This document shows, one piece after another, positions 44,782-53,700 of a stretch of DNA of 64,000 nucleotides. The position numbers were made by a program. The first letter of the stretch is position 1. Every line of letters starts with the position of its first letter. The stretch is taken from the NCBI RefSeq assembly GCF_003018255.1, contig NZ_CP027440.1. One strand, given 5' to 3'. The stretch is from Escherichia coli (GTDB taxonomy: Bacteria; Pseudomonadota; Gammaproteobacteria; Enterobacterales; Enterobacteriaceae).

Positions 44782-47700
44782 TAAATCAGTCGCGCACTTT
44801 GTCCGCTTTCTCCCGAGCTTCCCGCTCGAGAGAGAAAATAATCCGTTGTAATTGCCGCTCCACCGTCGGGCTGACGTTAAGAAAACGGAAGCTCAGACGG
44901 GGAGTGGTGATGGTTTCATTCCTGCCATCAATCACTTTGCGCTCGCTGATGGAGATTAACTGGGCGTCAAAGTGAAAAACACCCCATTGCCCCATGTTGA
45001 CTTCAATCTGAGCGAAGCGCATGCCTTCGTGCAATCCGGCAGGCTTTGTTGTTTCCAGTAATGCGCCCATGCCGCCTAACGACAAATCATACAGGCGGAA
45101 ACGTAACGTACTGTTATCCGCCAGTTTGGTCTGGCAAAAATATGGCGGATGGAGTGGGGCGGTGATGCGGAAATATCGGCGTCGTTGTACAAACCATAAG
45201 GTGGGAGGCGGTACGGTAATAAATGCCGGAAGCTGCAAGTATTCACTCTGCTGTAGTTGTTCAACAGTAAACTCGACTTTCGCACCCTGAGTTTCGGCGG
45301 TAATGGTAATGTGCTGCGCCTTTAGCACGGCGATGTTGTCTTCGGCCCGGCTGCCGAAATCCAGCACCAGTTTATCCGGAGTTATTGCCAGTATTTTGCT
45401 GATCAGCTGCCCGCCATTCCAGCTAATACGCAAAGGAATTGCGGCTTTGTGCAAATCGCGTAACACGCCCAGGACGGCTAACGGATTTTGTTTCAGGAAC
45501 TGCTCATGGTAATGACTCACGCGGAAAAACTCCTGACTGACAAACTGTCTTAGGTTTATCGGTCACAGTTAACAAAACTTAATACAAATGCGTGAATGTT
45601 TTTTACATGTCGTTCTTAAATCAGCCGACATACGCCCAGCATCGATCCCGCCCTTGCCTATACTTAGAGCGTTGACGTAAGCATTTCTTGCGTCCGATTC
45701 ATCGAAACGAGGGCCTGAACATGGGAATTATTGCCTGGATTATTTTTGGCCTGATAGCCGGCATAATCGCCAAGCTAATCATGCCGGGACGTGATGGTGG
45801 TGGATTTTTCCTGACCTGTATTCTCGGGATAGTCGGTGCGGTGGTCGGCGGCTGGCTGGCGACCATGTTTGGCATTGGCGGCTCCATCAGTGGTTTTAAT
45901 TTGCACAGCTTCCTGGTGGCGGTGGTGGGCGCTATCCTGGTGCTGGGCGTATTCCGCCTTCTGCGAAGAGAATAAGATTTTCATAAGGCGGATAGCGATA
46001 CATATGCCGCTATCCGCTTTCACATCAGAACGTATACTCGATACCTGCCCAGAAATTGCGACCTTCTTCAATAAACCCTTCACTGTAGGCATATTTGGTA
46101 TCAAACAGGTTATTGACCGACGCATTGACGCTGAAGCCATGACCTAAGGTGTAATCGGCTCGAATGTGAGTCACCGCAAAACCGGCGGCTTTTTGTGAAC
46201 CGTCACTGTTGCTGTAGCTGGAGGAACGCGCCTCTTCCGACAGCGTTACGCTTAACGGCTCCCACGGTTTGAGAGTCATCCATGCGGTCATTGTCTGCGT
46301 TGGCAGATCGGTTATCTTGCCGATGTCTTTGCGTTTGGCATCAGCGTGGATCAGGGCGTAGCTCAATCCTACATCCAGTATATTGCTGATTTTCCCCTTA
46401 ATACCGGCATCCAGACCGCTGTAATCCACCGTGCCGCTGTTCTGATTTTGAATGGTATCGGCATCGATATTGTGCGAGAGGATGGCATCACTCACCCGGT
46501 TATAGTAAACGCTGACCTCAAACCCCCAGTCGTGCGTGAAGGCACCATTCCAGGTTAAATCCACCCCGCGCGCGCGTTCCGGCTTGAGCTGCGGGTTAAC
46601 AATCGCTATCTGGTTATACGCAGGTTTGGACGTGGTATAGCGTTCTTTCAGCGTCGGAAAGCGTGTGCGGTCATAGTACGAAAGCGCCAGCGTGTCTTCA
46701 TTGGCAAAGTGGTATTTCCCCATCACCTGCCAGTTAAAAGCTGACTGATTGTTGTCGTCATAATGGGTGATACTGCCATCTTTCTCATGTTTTTTCGCTT
46801 CTACGCTATCGCGCCAGTCATAGCTGATTCCAGCCACGACATCGACATTATCGGCAGCAGCCCATTGATATTCACTGGCGAGCGACCAGGTACGATCTTC
46901 ATAGCGATCGTAAGCGGCGTGCGGCGCACCTTTTTCCCGGTGTACGTCATCTTTCCAGTTAACGGCAAACGACAGCAGATCGTTTTCACGCACATCGGCT
47001 GCCAGTTGTAACCCGGCACCGTCGCTGTAATCGGAATAATGGCTGTAGCTGCCTTTTTTATTTTTCAAATCAGCCAGCGAGTTGTACATCATCAGCGTAT
47101 TTTCAAAGGTATCGCGATACAGCCGACTTTTCAGGGTAAAACGATCGTTTAGTTGGGTCGTTCCCTGATAATAAAAACTTTCTTTGTCATACTCTGGCCA
47201 CTGCCAGTAGCGTGATTTTTGACCACTATTTCCACTGTATGGCGGATTATCTTTTTCACCATCCTGCTTAATGTAAGTCAATGTGTATTCATCGTTTTCG
47301 CGTGGTGTAAAACCGAGCTTCACAATGCCGCGTTTATCATCAGCCGATGAATTAATCATCTTGCCGTGTTTGCCTGCAATATCATTATTTACACCATGCG
47401 GCAGGCCGAGAAAATCCTGCTTTAGCTGGCTACCGCTGACTTGCAAATACCCCAGATCGCTGCTGGCGGCAAATGAAGCATGCATATCGTAGGCATTGTC
47501 CTGGCTACGGCTCCATCCCTGGCGATATCCCAGATTTGCTTCCAGAGGTTTTGTTGGCTTCTGGGTGGTGATATTAATGGCTCCGCCCATCTGATTAGGC
47601 CCCTGAAGCAGCGACGAATACCCTTTGGAAACTTCAACTGCCCCCAAATTGTTGGTCAGAATCCGCGCCAGATCGAGGTTGCCGTCATAGGGAACATAAA

Positions 47701-50700: not shown

Positions 50701-53700
50701 GGTGATGAGTGTGGCACAGACAATCAATCCAAAGCGCAGACGTGTCACGTTCAGTCCCAGCGAACGGGCTTCGTCGTCGGAAAGCGTGAGTAAATTCATG
50801 CGCCAGCGGAGAAAAAACAGGGGCAAGGAGCCTATGAGAATGATCGGTGCAGCATAGCAGAGATCGCGTAAGGTCACGGTGGACAGCCCCCCCAGCAACC
50901 AGAAGGTAATTGACGGTAACTGGGTATAAGGATCGGCCAGCGTTTTTATTAGCGATATCCCCGCTCCGCACAACGTTCCTAACGCAATGCCTACCAGCAC
51001 CAGGGTTAAGATCGGATCGTGGCGGGTCACCCGACGCGTAATCAACCAGACGCCCGCGACCACCATCAGCCCGCCGCAAAATGCGTACAGCTGGATGTAA
51101 ACAATGGATAATCCCCACAGGATTGCCGCGCAGGCACCAAGTCCGGCACCGGCGGAGACGCCTAAAATATCCGGTGACACTAAGGGATTACGGAACATTC
51201 CCTGATAGGTGGTTCCGGCCCCTGCCAGCGCCGCGCCCAGAAACAGCGCAGCAAGAATACGCGGCACGCGGATTTGCCAGAAGACAATTTGTTCCTGCAC
51301 AGTAACATTTTCTTGACGAAGAATGAGCGCCAGCAGTTGCTGCATATCGAGATGATAAGCCCCACTTACGGCGGCAAAAGTGATACTGATAGCTGCCAGC
51401 AGCAAAATACATCCGTTTACGGTTCTCATTAGCTCGCCACCAATTTTTGATAGTCGGCGTCACTTAATGGGCAATGCCAGAACAGTTGGGCGTAATGCTG
51501 CATGTCACTTTTAAACTGGCGATTGATGGCGGGATCCAGCCAGGCGTGAAGTCTGCGTAATCCCAGAAGACGGTTGATTCCCGGCGGGGCATCCAGCCAG
51601 CCAAAGGGCAGGCCACTTAAAAATAAGATGCGTTGTTCCGCAACCGCTTTCACGCCCTGCCAGAGAGGATCACGACGAATAAAATCTGCAGTAACGGCCT
51701 CCTGAACCAGAATAATATCCGGCTGCCAGCGCAGGAGATTTTCCATGGAAACCTGTGTCAGACCGTGGCGATCGGCTATTTGCGCGACGTTGTGCAAACC
51801 TAATAATTCCGCCGCCTCGGTATGCAACGAACCCTGTAAGCCCGTTTCCAGCCCTCGAGGACCGCGCGCAGCATAAAAGCTGAGATTAGCGGCGGGTGAG
51901 GTGGCGAATGCCTGAGCTTCACCAACGAAGCGGCTGGCGAGATTGGCTTGTTCTGCGGCGCGGTGCTCTTCGCCTAACGTTTTGCCAAGCGTTGTTAACT
52001 GTTCTGCTGATTGTTCCAGTTTCCCGTTAAGCAATAACCAGGGTATTTGTGTCTGTTCGCTAACCTGCCGTGCCTGGGAGATCCAGGTTTCATCCGTATT
52101 GCCGCAATCAACGACCAAATCGGGATGTAACGCCATAAGCCCTTCCAGCGAGAGTGTACTGGCGCGCCCGGCGAGTCGTCCCAGCCTGGGGAACTGGCGA
52201 ATGTGCTCTGGCAATGGAATTAATGCCTGACGGGCAAAATCAAAAGAGGAAAAACCGACCATTTTTTCTGGCGCGACAGCCAGCAATAGTAAATCGGCGG
52301 GCGCGCCTGCGCTGACGATGCGTGTAATGTTTTGGGCTTCGGGAAGCGTCAGTGAGGCCCAGAATTTGACTGATTGTGCAAAGGACGGCAGATGATGCAG
52401 GAACAATGTCGACGCAAGAATCTGTGTAAACCTCCGTCTGGTTAGTGACATAAGTAATATCCTGATAATTAAAACCGCTATATACTTACACATATAGCGA
52501 AAAAGATCATGTTTGATGTCAAAATTTGTCTAAAGAGACGGAATGATTTGCTTGTTGCTTAAATAACACTTTGTTCCACAAGAAAATTGTCAGGGAGAAT
52601 GGGGAGTGGGGGAAAATATAAATAGAGGTGTAATGATTAACAAGTTGATAAAATAAAATTAAAATCTTCTCTAATAAAAGAAAATAAAGGCATAGACCGT
52701 AGAAAGAGTGGTATTTGGTATTTCGTGGTGAAGAAAGAGCAATGCCAATTTTATGCACGTAATGGCATTGCTCGATATACAGTAAAGTTAAGGCGTAGGT
52801 TCCGCCTCATTTTGTTTTACCGGCTGTGTTGTTGATTCACTGAGTGGACGCGTCGCCGGAACATTGTCGCACGGTTGCTCTTTCGGGCAGATCAAATCCA
52901 GCATTTTCAGCGTCACGCCATTGGTCCAGCCAAAGCCATCCTGTAATGGATATTCGCCACCGCCGCCCCCTGTTCCGGTGGTGCTGACATCATATTTTTC
53001 CACCAGCTTTTTCTCCCGGTCATAGGTGTGCTGAACATTGGTCAGGAAGTGCCAGCTAATGTCCATCGCCACCTCTTTTTGCCCGTAGTTTTGTAATCCT
53101 TCTGTCGCGACCCACTGCAACGGTGCCCAGCCGTTTGGCGCATCCCATTGTTGCCCACTTTTCACCGACGTGGTGTTCAGGCCGCCTGGTTGCAGCAGAT
53201 GTGTTTTCGTCGCCGTCGCCATTTTGCTGGCGCGATCTTTCGCTGCCGCATTGACGTACAGCGGGAACAGGGCGGCCGCGGTTAACTGATTGCGCACTTT
53301 ATGACTTTTCAGGTCGTAATCGGCATACCAGCCTTGTTGATCGTTCCACAGGTATTTTTCGATCCCTTTTTGACGGGCATTCGCCAGCGTTTCGTACTGG
53401 TTTGCCATCGCGTTATCTCCGGCAGCTTTGCTGGCGCGGGCGAGGATTTTTTCCATTTTAAACATCAGGCTGTTCAGATCGACCGGTACGATGCTGGTGG
53501 TGCGTAAGGTATTTAACTGCTGCGGATTGTCCATCCAGCGCGAGCTGAAATCCCAGCCAGACGCAGCGGCAGAGCGCAGGTCGCGGTAAATTTCAGTGGC
53601 AGGTCGATTCGGATTGCTTTTGGCGGTGGCAATATCTTCCACCCATGACTCTGGTCGTGGCGTATCGCGATCGTCCCAGTAGCGGTTGAGAAGGGTACCA

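What the first reader, a model, noticed from the sequence alone, without database searches (positions are those of the whole stretch)
46025..52493. Six-gene accessory uptake island (TonB-dependent receptor, ModD-like, methyltransferase, ABC transporter) between ymgE and treA
Between ymgE and treA, where I recall ycgY in K-12, lies a - strand operon: periplasmic binding protein with a possible Tat-type TRRRF signal, FecCD-type permease, FecE-type ATPase, SAM-dependent methyltransferase, ModD-like phosphoribosyltransferase-family protein, and a TonB-dependent outer membrane receptor. The substrate cannot be determined from sequence; a TonB-dependent receptor paired with a class III binding protein suggests a metal chelate (siderophore, haem or cobalamin-like). 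Modifying enzymes (methyltransferase, ModD-like) embedded in the uptake operon are unusual.
Basis: partly seen in the sequence, partly recalled or inferred. Interest (0 to 1): 0.6.

Follow-up and report, generated by a model that had tools for sequence, protein, structure and literature searches.

The report
Molybdenum-regulated TonB-dependent uptake operon
The six genes are real, but they look like a molybdenum-controlled import system with its own outer-membrane receptor rather than an iron or vitamin B12 system, and they are an old enterobacterial locus that laboratory E. coli K-12 has lost.

Summary
Six intact, tightly coupled minus-strand genes lie between ymgE and treA: a Tat-signal binding protein, a FecCD-type permease, an ABC ATPase, a SAM methyltransferase, ModD and a TonB-dependent receptor.

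The interpretation needs revising.

1. A palindrome at 52474-52501 matches the E. coli ModE operator consensus at 17 of 20 positions. It ends 22 nt before the binding-protein start codon. The same box sits at the same place in homologous operons of Citrobacter, Klebsiella, Proteus, Providencia, Morganella, Pectobacterium and Shewanella. There are 102 boxes in 1.65 Mb against about 1 expected, nearly all at these promoters. No Fur, Zur or NikR box and no riboswitch was found.

2. The permease and ATPase are closest to MolB and MolC of the Haemophilus influenzae molybdate/tungstate importer. The binding protein is a distant MolA relative. Six distant homologues of it sit next to modAB, Mop, ModD, a ModE-type HTH or a NifX-like gene.

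3. The locus is syntenic across Enterobacteriaceae. K-12 keeps the last 7 codons of the receptor gene, so it lost the operon.

Best reading: a ModE-repressed, TonB-dependent Mol-type molybdenum/tungsten acquisition system. The chemical form of the cargo and the roles of ModD and the methyltransferase are unknown. I found no description of it in the searchable literature.

The parts
52474..52501 (.). ModE-type operator. On the coding (minus) strand it reads tTCGCTATATg-tgtaag-TATATAGCGgt, with a perfect CGCTATAT-N8-ATATAGCG palindrome at its core.
   Evidence: It matches ATCGNTATATA-N6-TATATANCGAT at 17 of 20 positions (consensus quoted in PMC545781). It is unique in the 64-kb window, where the next best score is 14. 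The same box is found upstream of the orthologous gene in 53 of 64 loci that include the upstream sequence.
52517..52522 (-). TTGACA, a candidate -35 hexamer 15 nt upstream of the operator. A 17-nt spacer would place the -10 hexamer inside the left half-site.
   Evidence: Read directly from the sequence. A TTGAC(A/T)-like element lies 15-25 nt upstream of the box in most orthologous promoters. The generic promoter scan did not call it, so this part is inferred.
51429..52451 (-). Class III (Peripla_BP_2) periplasmic binding protein of 340 aa, with a twin-arginine signal MSLTRRRFTQ...SFA/QS. It is a distant relative of MolA.
   Evidence: The AlphaFold2 model has pLDDT 88. The best Foldseek hits are 4pag (TM about 0.8) and then MolA 3psa (TM 0.65-0.68, 20% identity).
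50449..51429 (-). FecCD-family type II ABC importer permease, 326 aa, MolB-like.
   Evidence: The best solved-structure hit is HI1471 (MolB, 2nq2), with E = 9e-64 and 42% identity over 313 columns. This is ahead of FhuB, HmuU and BtuC.
49694..50452 (-). ABC ATPase, 252 aa, MolC-like.
   Evidence: The best importer hit in the PDB is HI1470 (MolC) at E = 3e-36. The start codon follows RefSeq annotation of the orthologue.
48872..49684 (-). Cytoplasmic class I SAM-dependent methyltransferase, 270 aa. It belongs to a family that travels with this transporter and carries an invariant CDI(A/V)(V/I)ASRST motif.
   Evidence: It reaches no curated NCBIfam family. Linkage to the transporter is shown. The model has pLDDT 92, but only generic small-molecule methyltransferase folds match it (TM 0.5-0.6).
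48021..48875 (-). ModD, 284 aa, a paralogue of quinolinate phosphoribosyltransferase.
   Evidence: It scores 501 bits on TIGR01334, whose cutoff is 179. The QPRT residues TRK, HR, E201 and D222 are kept. R105 is replaced by K and K172 by F. All of these states are invariant in 61 orthologues.
46025..47995 (-). TonB-dependent outer-membrane receptor, 656 aa, with a signal peptide and the TonB box DTLTVWSS. It belongs to an orphan subfamily.
   Evidence: It gives only partial hits to the siderophore, haem and B12 receptor models, all far below their cutoffs. Orthologues carry the Plug and barrel Pfam domains. The TonB box is conserved.
45988..46017 (.). GC-rich hairpin (GCGGATAGCG...CGCTATCCGC) between the convergent ymgE and receptor genes. 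It is probably a bidirectional terminator.
   Evidence: Read directly from the sequence. The 73 bp from the end of ymgE through this hairpin and the last 7 receptor codons are also present in K-12.

Best explanation
This is a molybdenum-responsive uptake operon.

1. **Regulation.** When cytoplasmic molybdate is sufficient, the molybdate-ModE dimer binds the operator at 52474-52501. The operator overlaps the core promoter, so the operon is repressed in the same way as modABC. Under molybdenum starvation the operon is transcribed.
2. **Outer membrane.** The TonB-dependent receptor carries a molybdenum (or tungsten) species across the outer membrane.
3. **Periplasm and inner membrane.** The Tat-exported, MolA-like binding protein captures the species in the periplasm. 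A MolB/MolC-like type II ABC importer moves it into the cytoplasm.
4. **Cytoplasm.** Two enzymes then act on the cargo or its carrier ligand. ModD is a phosphoribosyltransferase-like enzyme with an intact PRPP/Mg site and an altered substrate pocket. The other is a methyltransferase specific to this kind of operon.

**Shown here, all by sequence analysis:**
- the homologies;
- the conserved operator and its position;
- the conserved gene linkage;
- the molybdenum gene contexts of distant binding-protein homologues.

**Inferred:**
- repression rather than activation;
- molybdenum or tungsten as the cargo;
- whether the cargo is free oxyanion or a complex;
- what the two enzymes do.
For: **Operator**
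- It matches the ModE consensus at 17 of 20 positions and is unique in the window. The consensus is quoted in PMC545781.
- Phylogenetic footprint: in the 87 related loci held when one search was run, 102 sites score 16/20 or better in 1.65 Mb. About 1.2 are expected from local-composition shuffles.
- In the 80 loci from the genome scan there are 95 such sites, and 91 of them lie within 320 nt upstream of the binding-protein, receptor or methyltransferase start.
- Many genera carry a second box in front of a separately transcribed receptor gene.
- A perfect 20/20 box precedes a distant TBDR-PBP-ModD-FecCD cluster in a 63% GC contig.
- The box ends 15-35 nt before the start codon, with -35-like elements just upstream of it, so it must overlap the -10 hexamer or the transcription start.

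**Relation to MolBC-A**
- The permease is 42% identical to MolB, which is its best PDB hit. The ATPase's best importer hit is MolC.
- MolBC-A is an experimentally shown molybdate/tungstate importer. Its operon is repressed by molybdate and lies next to modD (PMC4031551; PMC3928620).
- MolA is the closest characterised fold and sequence relative of the binding protein.

**Gene contexts**
- All six informative contexts of distant binding-protein homologues are molybdenum-linked. They contain ModD plus formate dehydrogenase, a Mop domain protein, a NifX/NifB-C-like gene, a ModE-type HTH fused or adjacent, ModA, and ModA plus ModB.
- ModD is a family repeatedly linked to mod and nif genes (TIGR01334; PMC4999443; modDABC).

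**Negative checks**
- There is no Fur, Zur or NikR box.
- There is no Rfam riboswitch.
Against: - No experiment bears on this operon, and none was found in the searchable literature.
- The binding protein is only about 20% identical to MolA. Its nearest structure, 4pag, has no assigned ligand. The MolA oxyanion-contact residues could not be checked.
- Molybdate is small enough to pass through porins. A TonB-dependent receptor is therefore not obviously needed for the free oxyanion.
- No role for a methyltransferase or a phosphoribosyltransferase in molybdate handling is known.
- The generic sigma-70 scan did not call the promoter I infer.
- ModE also controls genes that are not molybdenum importers, so an operator alone does not fix the substrate.
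Confidence: 0.65

Rival explanations
1. This is the first reader's reading: an iron-siderophore, haem or cobalamin-type chelate uptake system that happens to carry two modifying enzymes.
For: The architecture (receptor, class III binding protein, FecCD permease) is the one used for siderophores, haem and B12. The weak NCBIfam hits are to those families. PGAP labels the binding protein 'iron ABC transporter substrate-binding protein'.
Against: - All hits to the iron, haem and B12 families are far below their curated cutoffs.
- The best Fur-box match upstream is 13 of 19, and 39 positions in the window score as well or better.
- No cobalamin riboswitch is present.
- The conserved operator is ModE-type.
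- The nearest characterised ABC core is MolBC, not Fec, Fhu, Hmu or Btu.
- The gene contexts of distant homologues are molybdenum-related, not iron-related.
Confidence: 0.07
2. The operon is ModE-controlled, but the cargo is not molybdate. Under molybdenum starvation it would import an organic molybdenum- or tungsten-containing compound, or a related molecule. Candidates are a metallophore complex, thiomolybdate, or a preformed pterin or molybdenum-cofactor derivative. ModD and the methyltransferase would then dismantle or convert it.
For: - TonB-dependent receptors and type II importers usually carry bulky or scarce chelates.
- Two cytoplasmic small-molecule enzymes are co-inherited with the transporter.
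- ModD keeps the catalytic PRPP/Mg residues but has a changed substrate pocket, K172 to F. This suggests a real organic substrate.
- Edwardsiella keeps the methyltransferase and ModD under a ModE box after losing the transporter.
Against: - MolA, the nearest characterised relative, binds the free oxyanions (PMC4031551).
- The homologue P0303 joins a ModE-type HTH to this binding-protein domain. That fits direct oxyanion sensing, although a hydrophobic, lipobox-like linker makes the topology ambiguous.
- No biosynthesis or export genes for a metallophore are present in the operon.
Confidence: 0.18
3. In E. coli the operon is a decaying, largely silent remnant with no current function.
For: - It is missing from about 60% of complete E. 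coli genomes.
- The methyltransferase is a pseudogene in an O157:H7 strain.
- Truncated methyltransferase variants occur among E. coli-like sequences.
- Partial clusters exist in Edwardsiella, Pluralibacter and Intestinirhabdus.
- The upstream spacer is AT-rich, about 40% GC.
Against: - All six ORFs are intact in this window and have the same lengths as orthologues in other genera.
- The locus is 97-99.9% conserved in 2139 genomes.
- The operator and the gene order have been maintained across families of Enterobacterales and in Shewanella.
Confidence: 0.07
4. The palindrome is not an operator. It would be a hairpin, for example a terminator for treA read-through, or a chance match.
For: The terminator scan lists it as an 11-pair stem followed by TTTT. 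A pattern search allowing 2 mismatches finds at least one match in 29 of 100 shuffles of the window.
Against: - The stem has only 3 G-C pairs.
- treA has its own hairpin at its stop codon.
- Across genera the half-site sequences themselves are conserved while the 6-nt spacer varies. That is the signature of a protein-binding site, not of a structure.
- The enrichment is about 80-fold and is confined to these promoters.
- The actual match has 0 mismatches.
Confidence: 0.03

Closest known systems
MolBC-A (HI1470/HI1471/HI1472) of Haemophilus influenzae, a type II ABC importer for molybdate and tungstate
   Same: - The permease is 42% identical to MolB, which is its best PDB hit. The ATPase's best importer hit is MolC.
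- Both use a class III binding protein.
- modD is adjacent in both (PMC3928620).
- The mol operon is repressed by molybdate (PMC4031551), which matches the ModE operator found here.
   Different: - The binding protein is only about 20% identical to MolA (TM 0.65-0.68) and is closer to the uncharacterised 4pag.
- This operon adds a TonB-dependent receptor, a dedicated methyltransferase and a Tat signal.
- None of these three features appears in the H. influenzae cluster as listed in PMC3928620 (HI1469-HI1475). I could not fetch that locus to check directly.
ModABC and the ModE regulon of E. coli
   Same: Both have the same operator consensus placed over the core promoter of an uptake operon. 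This implies repression by molybdate-ModE (the layout of the modA operator is from my own knowledge).
   Different: ModABC is a type I importer with a class II ModA binding protein. It has no outer-membrane receptor and no associated enzymes. This operon is absent from K-12, the strain in which the ModE regulon was defined.
TonB-dependent chelate uptake systems (BtuB-BtuFCD, FecA-FecBCDE, FhuA-FhuDCB, haem systems)
   Same: The three-compartment architecture is the same: receptor, class III binding protein and type II ABC importer. FhuD is likewise exported by the Tat pathway (my own knowledge).
   Different: - None of their curated models is reached.
- There is no Fur box and no B12 riboswitch.
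- Regulation is ModE-type.
- Cytoplasmic enzymes are embedded in the operon.
ModD (TIGR01334), the quinolinate phosphoribosyltransferase paralogue of mod and nif clusters (for example Rhodobacter modABCD, Geobacter modDABC, nifUSVW-modD)
   Same: It is a full-length member of the family above the curated cutoff. Like other members, it is linked to molybdenum transport genes.
   Different: The function of the family is unknown. Here ModD is always paired with the methyltransferase. It is dispensable in Shewanella-type clusters, which lack it.

Membership tests
MolBC-A type II molybdate/tungstate ABC importer | Permease homologous to MolB (HI1471) | tested here: met
   The best PDB hit is 2nq2_A, with E = 9e-64 and 42% identity over 313 aligned columns. 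It ranks ahead of FhuB, HmuU and BtuC.
MolBC-A type II molybdate/tungstate ABC importer | ATPase homologous to MolC (HI1470) | tested here: met
   2nq2_C is the best bacterial importer hit at E = 3e-36.
MolBC-A type II molybdate/tungstate ABC importer | Cognate binding protein orthologous to MolA | tested here: inconclusive
   By sequence, the match to 3psa is E = 1e-7 and covers only part of the protein. By fold, MolA ranks third, with TM 0.65-0.68 and 20% identity. The two proteins belong to the same broad clade, but orthology is not shown.
MolBC-A type II molybdate/tungstate ABC importer | The binding protein binds molybdate or tungstate and not other oxyanions | not testable with these tools
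   This needs ITC or crystallography. Indirect support comes from the molybdenum gene contexts of six distant homologues.
ModE regulon | Inverted repeat matching ATCGNTATATA-N6-TATATANCGAT in the promoter region | tested here: met
   The site at 52474-52501 matches 17 of 20 positions and ends 22 nt before the start codon. It is conserved in 53 of 64 orthologous promoters.
ModE regulon | ModE-molybdate binds the site and expression responds to molybdate | not testable with these tools
   No expression or binding data were found.
Fur-regulated iron-chelate uptake systems | Fur box at the promoter | tested here: not met
   The best match is 13 of 19, and 39 positions in the window score as well or better.
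Fur-regulated iron-chelate uptake systems | Components reach the curated siderophore or haem equivalog models | tested here: not met
   Every such hit is far below its cutoff. For example, the TonB-siderophore model scores 127 bits against a cutoff of 224, and the FecB-type model scores 32 against 320.
Cobalamin uptake (BtuB/BtuFCD) | Cobalamin riboswitch upstream, and BtuB/BtuF equivalog scores | tested here: not met
   There is no Rfam match in 44000-56000 other than one chance-level hit. The TonB-B12 model scores 80 bits against a cutoff of 600.
ModD (TIGR01334) | Full-length match above the curated cutoff | tested here: met
   The score is 501 bits against a cutoff of 179, covering residues 2-278 of 284.
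TonB-dependent transporters | Signal peptide, TonB box, plug domain and beta-barrel | tested here: met
   The TonB box DTLTVWSS is conserved. There are end-to-end alignments to the TonB-dependent receptor models. Orthologues carry PF07715 and PF00593.
Tat-exported proteins | Twin-arginine motif S/T-R-R-x-F-L-K followed by a hydrophobic region and an AxA-type cleavage site | tested here: met
   The signal reads MSLTRRRFTQILASTLFLHHLPSFA/QS, and the RR-x-F motif is conserved across orthologues. The actual export route was not tested.

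The most novel reading that the evidence does not exclude
This would be the first outer-membrane, TonB-energised route for molybdenum (or tungsten) acquisition. It is switched on by ModE under molybdenum starvation. The receptor and the Tat-exported binding protein would import a complexed molybdenum species rather than free molybdate. The so far function-less ModD, together with its partner methyltransferase, would be the cytoplasmic enzymes that release or convert it. 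The system is widespread in gut and urinary-tract Enterobacterales, including ExPEC, EHEC, Proteus, Providencia, Morganella, Citrobacter and Klebsiella/Raoultella. It would have been missed because K-12 lost it.
Probability: 0.3. Interest if true: 0.8.

Novelty: new variant of a known kind. Interest (0 to 1): 0.62.

Why it matters
- **Molybdenum in infection.** Molybdenum-cofactor enzymes (nitrate, DMSO and TMAO reductases and formate dehydrogenases) drive Enterobacteriaceae growth in the inflamed gut and the urinary tract. This statement rests on my own knowledge.
- **A second uptake route.** Reviews I read treat ModABC, plus low-affinity or non-specific routes, as the molybdate uptake systems of these bacteria (PMC7759655; PMC10174112). 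A second, ModE-controlled route with its own outer-membrane receptor would change how molybdenum limitation and tungstate interference are interpreted. It is present in pathogenic E. coli lineages, Proteus and Klebsiella relatives but absent from K-12.
- **ModD and the methyltransferase.** The finding gives a concrete, testable setting for the unknown functions of ModD and of a conserved methyltransferase family.
- **A possible target.** It would add a surface-exposed, starvation-induced receptor as a possible vaccine or drug-delivery target.

Tried and rejected
- **Rfam.** A scan of 44000-56000 at E up to 1 found only one chance-level hit, so there is no B12 or Moco riboswitch.
- **Other metal-regulator boxes.** Fur, Zur and NikR consensus scans of 52440-52800 found nothing above background.
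- **Promoter scan.** The generic promoter and terminator scan did not identify the promoter and listed the operator as a weak terminator-like hairpin. I rejected the hairpin reading on comparative grounds.
- **Methyltransferase.** NCBIfam, PDB sequence search, AlphaFold2 and Foldseek gave only generic class I small-molecule methyltransferase similarity. There is no clue to the substrate.
- **Receptor.** There is no close solved structure and no curated family.
  - The EDL933 locus tags gave one transcriptome paper that lists Z1966 as uncharacterised and down-regulated.
  - No paper links a TonB-dependent receptor to ModE or to molybdenum limitation.
  - Most 'ModD' hits concern an unrelated Neisseria/Haemophilus DNA methyltransferase.
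  - The two most relevant papers are not held. They are Tirado-Lee 2011 on MolA and Studholme & Pau 2003 on ModE sites. As a result I could not check the MolA ligand-contact residues, or whether this site was already listed.
- **H. influenzae mol locus.** I could not retrieve it. The ModD homologue search returned only Enterobacterales in its top 120.
- **DUF2478 and THEP1-like NTPase genes.** These are found in some non-enterobacterial clusters in place of ModD and gave no functional lead.
- **ycgY.** It shows no detectable homology to any of the six genes.

Full report
**Observation.**
NCBIfam assigns the second to ModD: 501 bits on TIGR01334, against a cutoff of 179. The permease is FecCD/BtuC-like and the ATPase is a generic chelate-type ABC ATPase. 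The methyltransferase, the binding protein and the receptor reach no curated family.

RefSeq annotation of the orthologous O157:H7 locus and the orthologue alignments revise three start codons. The binding protein starts at 52451 (340 aa), the ATPase at 50452 (252 aa) and the receptor at 47995 (656 aa). The genes overlap by 1-4 nt or are at most 25 nt apart, so they form one operon. The composition, about 0.50-0.56 GC, is like that of the flanks.

**Distribution and origin.**
The whole segment is present at 80% coverage or more in 2139 of 5426 complete E. coli genomes, at 97-99.9% identity. These include ST131, O1:K1:H7 APEC and O157:H7. K-12, DH5alpha, BL21 and many others carry ycgY at this position instead.

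This is not a recently acquired island.
- The same cluster lies between treA and ymgE/ycgR/emtA in E. albertii and several Citrobacter species. It lies between treA and emtA in Klebsiella/Raoultella-like genomes.
- K-12 keeps 73 bp downstream of ymgE that include the terminator hairpin and the last 7 codons of the receptor gene. A 42% GC segment containing ycgY follows, and it has no detectable homology to the operon.
- The ancestral state is therefore presence, and the K-12-type lineages replaced the operon.

**Regulation.**
No riboswitch or other Rfam family is present, and no Fur, Zur or NikR box stands out upstream.

A perfect palindrome, CGCTATAT-N8-ATATAGCG, lies at 52476-52499. In its 28-nt frame (52474-52501) it matches the E. 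coli ModE consensus ATCGNTATATA-N6-TATATANCGAT at 17 of 20 positions. The consensus is as quoted in PMC545781. The next best site in the 64-kb window scores 14.

A genome scan with an alignment of the methyltransferase returned 331 relatives. Eighty loci were fetched, from Escherichia, Citrobacter, Klebsiella/Raoultella, Serratia, Pectobacterium, Erwinia/Pantoea, Proteus, Morganella, Providencia, Edwardsiella, Shewanella, Photobacterium and a Neisseriaceae genome.
- In 62 of them the order binding protein-permease-ATPase-methyltransferase-(ModD)-receptor is complete.
- A box scoring 16/20 or better lies within 320 nt upstream of the binding-protein gene in 53 of the 64 loci that include that region.
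- A second box precedes the receptor gene in 33 of 66 loci. This is typical where a terminator-like hairpin separates the receptor gene from ModD, as in Proteus, Providencia, Morganella, Shewanella and Pectobacterium.
- Across all 87 loci held at that point there are 102 such sites in 1.65 Mb, against about 1.2 expected from local-composition shuffles.
- In the 80 scanned loci, 91 of 95 sites sit at these promoters.
- The half-sites are conserved while the 6-nt spacer varies, as expected for a protein-binding site and not for a hairpin.
- The box ends 15-35 nt before the start codon, and a TTGAC(A/T)-like element lies 15-25 nt upstream of it. In the window this is TTGACA at 52517-52522. The operator must therefore overlap the -10 hexamer or the transcription start.

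From established knowledge of the modA operator (my memory), this is the layout of a ModE-repressed promoter. I therefore infer repression when molybdenum is replete.

**What the transporter resembles.**
- The best solved-structure hit of the permease is MolB (HI1471). The match has E = 9e-64 and 42% identity over 313 columns, ahead of FhuB, HmuU and BtuC. The best importer hit of the ATPase is MolC (HI1470).
- MolBC-A of H. influenzae imports molybdate and its operon is repressed by molybdate (PMC4031551). The H. influenzae cluster HI1469-HI1475 includes modD (PMC3928620).
- The binding protein is more distant. Its best sequence and fold match is 4pag, a Sulfurospirillum solute-binding protein with no assigned ligand (26% identity, TM about 0.8). 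MolA is next, at 20% identity and TM 0.65-0.68.

**Independent support for molybdenum.**
A profile search with the binding-protein alignment found 696 cluster representatives at E below 1e-30. I sampled seven distant ones. Six contexts were informative, and all six are molybdenum-linked.

| Locus | Neighbours of the distant homologue |
|---|---|
| L089 | Receptor, binding protein, ModD and FecCD beside a formate dehydrogenase, preceded by a perfect 20/20 ModE box in a 63% GC contig |
| L090 | A 68-aa Mop domain protein |
| L092 | A NifX/NifB-C-like gene |
| L093, L094 | A ModE-type HTH joined to the binding-protein domain through a hydrophobic, lipobox-like linker, followed by FecCD |
| L095 | A ModA-type binding protein |
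| L096 | ModA and ModB, both above curated cutoffs |

**The two enzymes.**
The methyltransferase family travels with the transporter in all lineages. ModD is present in most Enterobacterales but absent from Shewanella-type clusters. Some non-enterobacterial clusters carry a DUF2478 or THEP1-like NTPase gene instead.

ModD keeps the QPRT residues T138-R139-K140, H161-R162, E201 and D222. R105 is replaced by K and K172 by F. All of these states are invariant in 61 orthologues. This points to an active phosphoribosyltransferase with a different substrate.

The methyltransferase model is confident (pLDDT 92) but resembles only generic small-molecule methyltransferases. Neither protein has a signal peptide.

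Edwardsiella has lost the transporter but keeps the methyltransferase and ModD behind a ModE box. The pair may therefore have a cytoplasmic role in molybdenum handling that does not depend strictly on this transporter.

**Other features.**
The receptor has a conserved TonB box, (D/E)x(L/M/I)T(V/I)W(S/G)S. The twin-arginine signal of the binding protein is conserved across genera.

**Interpretation.**
The best-supported model is a ModE-repressed, TonB-dependent, Mol-type acquisition system for molybdenum or tungsten. The main uncertainties are these:
- whether the cargo is the free oxyanion or a complex;
- why a receptor is needed;
- what ModD and the methyltransferase do.

I give about 0.65 to the model as stated, with the cargo form left open. 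Within that model, I give about 0.3 to the complexed-cargo reading in which the two enzymes process the cargo. The iron/haem/B12 reading is now unlikely. In the literature available to me, no paper describes this operon or a molybdenum-regulated TonB-dependent receptor. The two most relevant papers could not be read, so prior mention of the ModE site cannot be excluded.

**Verdict.**
The finding is real, and it is more specific and more interesting than first described. I class it as a new variant of a known kind: a MolBC-A-like importer in the ModE regulon, extended by a receptor, a Tat-exported binding protein and a methyltransferase. Interest is 0.62.

Noticed in passing
window 29523-29545, upstream of the minus-strand ORF 29091-29492: A near-perfect Zur box (21 of 23 matches to GAAATGTTATAATATAACATTTC) lies just upstream of a 133-aa secreted protein that looks like PliG/YcgK. 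From memory, pliG is a known Zur target, so this is probably ordinary.
   Followed up: partly
L001 (E. coli O157:H7 Z1830) 6273-7085, 10188-11872 and 874-2921: In this O157:H7 genome the operon's methyltransferase is annotated as a pseudogene with an internal stop. treA is frameshifted, and ycgR is split by an IS3-family element. Truncated methyltransferase variants at 96-99% identity also appear in the protein search.
   Followed up: partly
L088 (DH5alpha) 1877-2573, compared with window 45976-46048: K-12-type genomes keep the last 7 codons of the receptor gene and the terminator hairpin next to ymgE. A 42% GC segment carrying ycgY follows, with no homology to the operon. ycgY therefore looks like the incoming DNA that replaced the operon.
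   Followed up: yes
window 52502-52787: A spacer of about 290 nt at about 40% GC lies between treA and the operator. It holds only an implausible 79-aa ORF (52519-52758) and one weak promoter-like match (52643-52615). Its role is unknown.
   Followed up: no
L050, L052, L054, L072 (Edwardsiella) around 9900-11700: Edwardsiella species keep only the methyltransferase-ModD pair. In three of the four loci a ModE box lies directly upstream. No transporter genes are within 9 kb.
   Followed up: partly
L093 1194-2621 and L094 682-2109 (protein P0303): A 475-aa ORF joins a ModE-type HTH, a hydrophobic segment with a lipobox-like FIGC, and a binding-protein domain of this family. It sits between a receptor gene and a FecCD gene. 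It is either a membrane-anchored one-component regulator or two genes read as one.
   Followed up: partly
L008 (contig labelled MAG: Collinsella sp.): This 3.2-kb contig, assigned to an actinobacterial MAG, carries the ATPase, methyltransferase and ModD genes at 97-99% protein identity to E. coli (tblastn). It is almost certainly a mis-binned Escherichia contig.
   Followed up: no
L031 and L032 (Affinibrenneria salicis, same scaffold at 144-165 kb and 910-931 kb): Two loci on one scaffold give identical results for every gene and for the ModE box. This is either a true duplication of the whole cluster or an assembly artefact.
   Followed up: no
L003-L005, about 4555-4578 in L003: In a 70% GC lineage the cluster (receptor, DUF2478, binding protein, permease, ATPase, methyltransferase) is preceded by a different palindrome, CGCTATTCA-N6-TGAATAACG. 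It may be a variant ModE-type operator.
   Followed up: no
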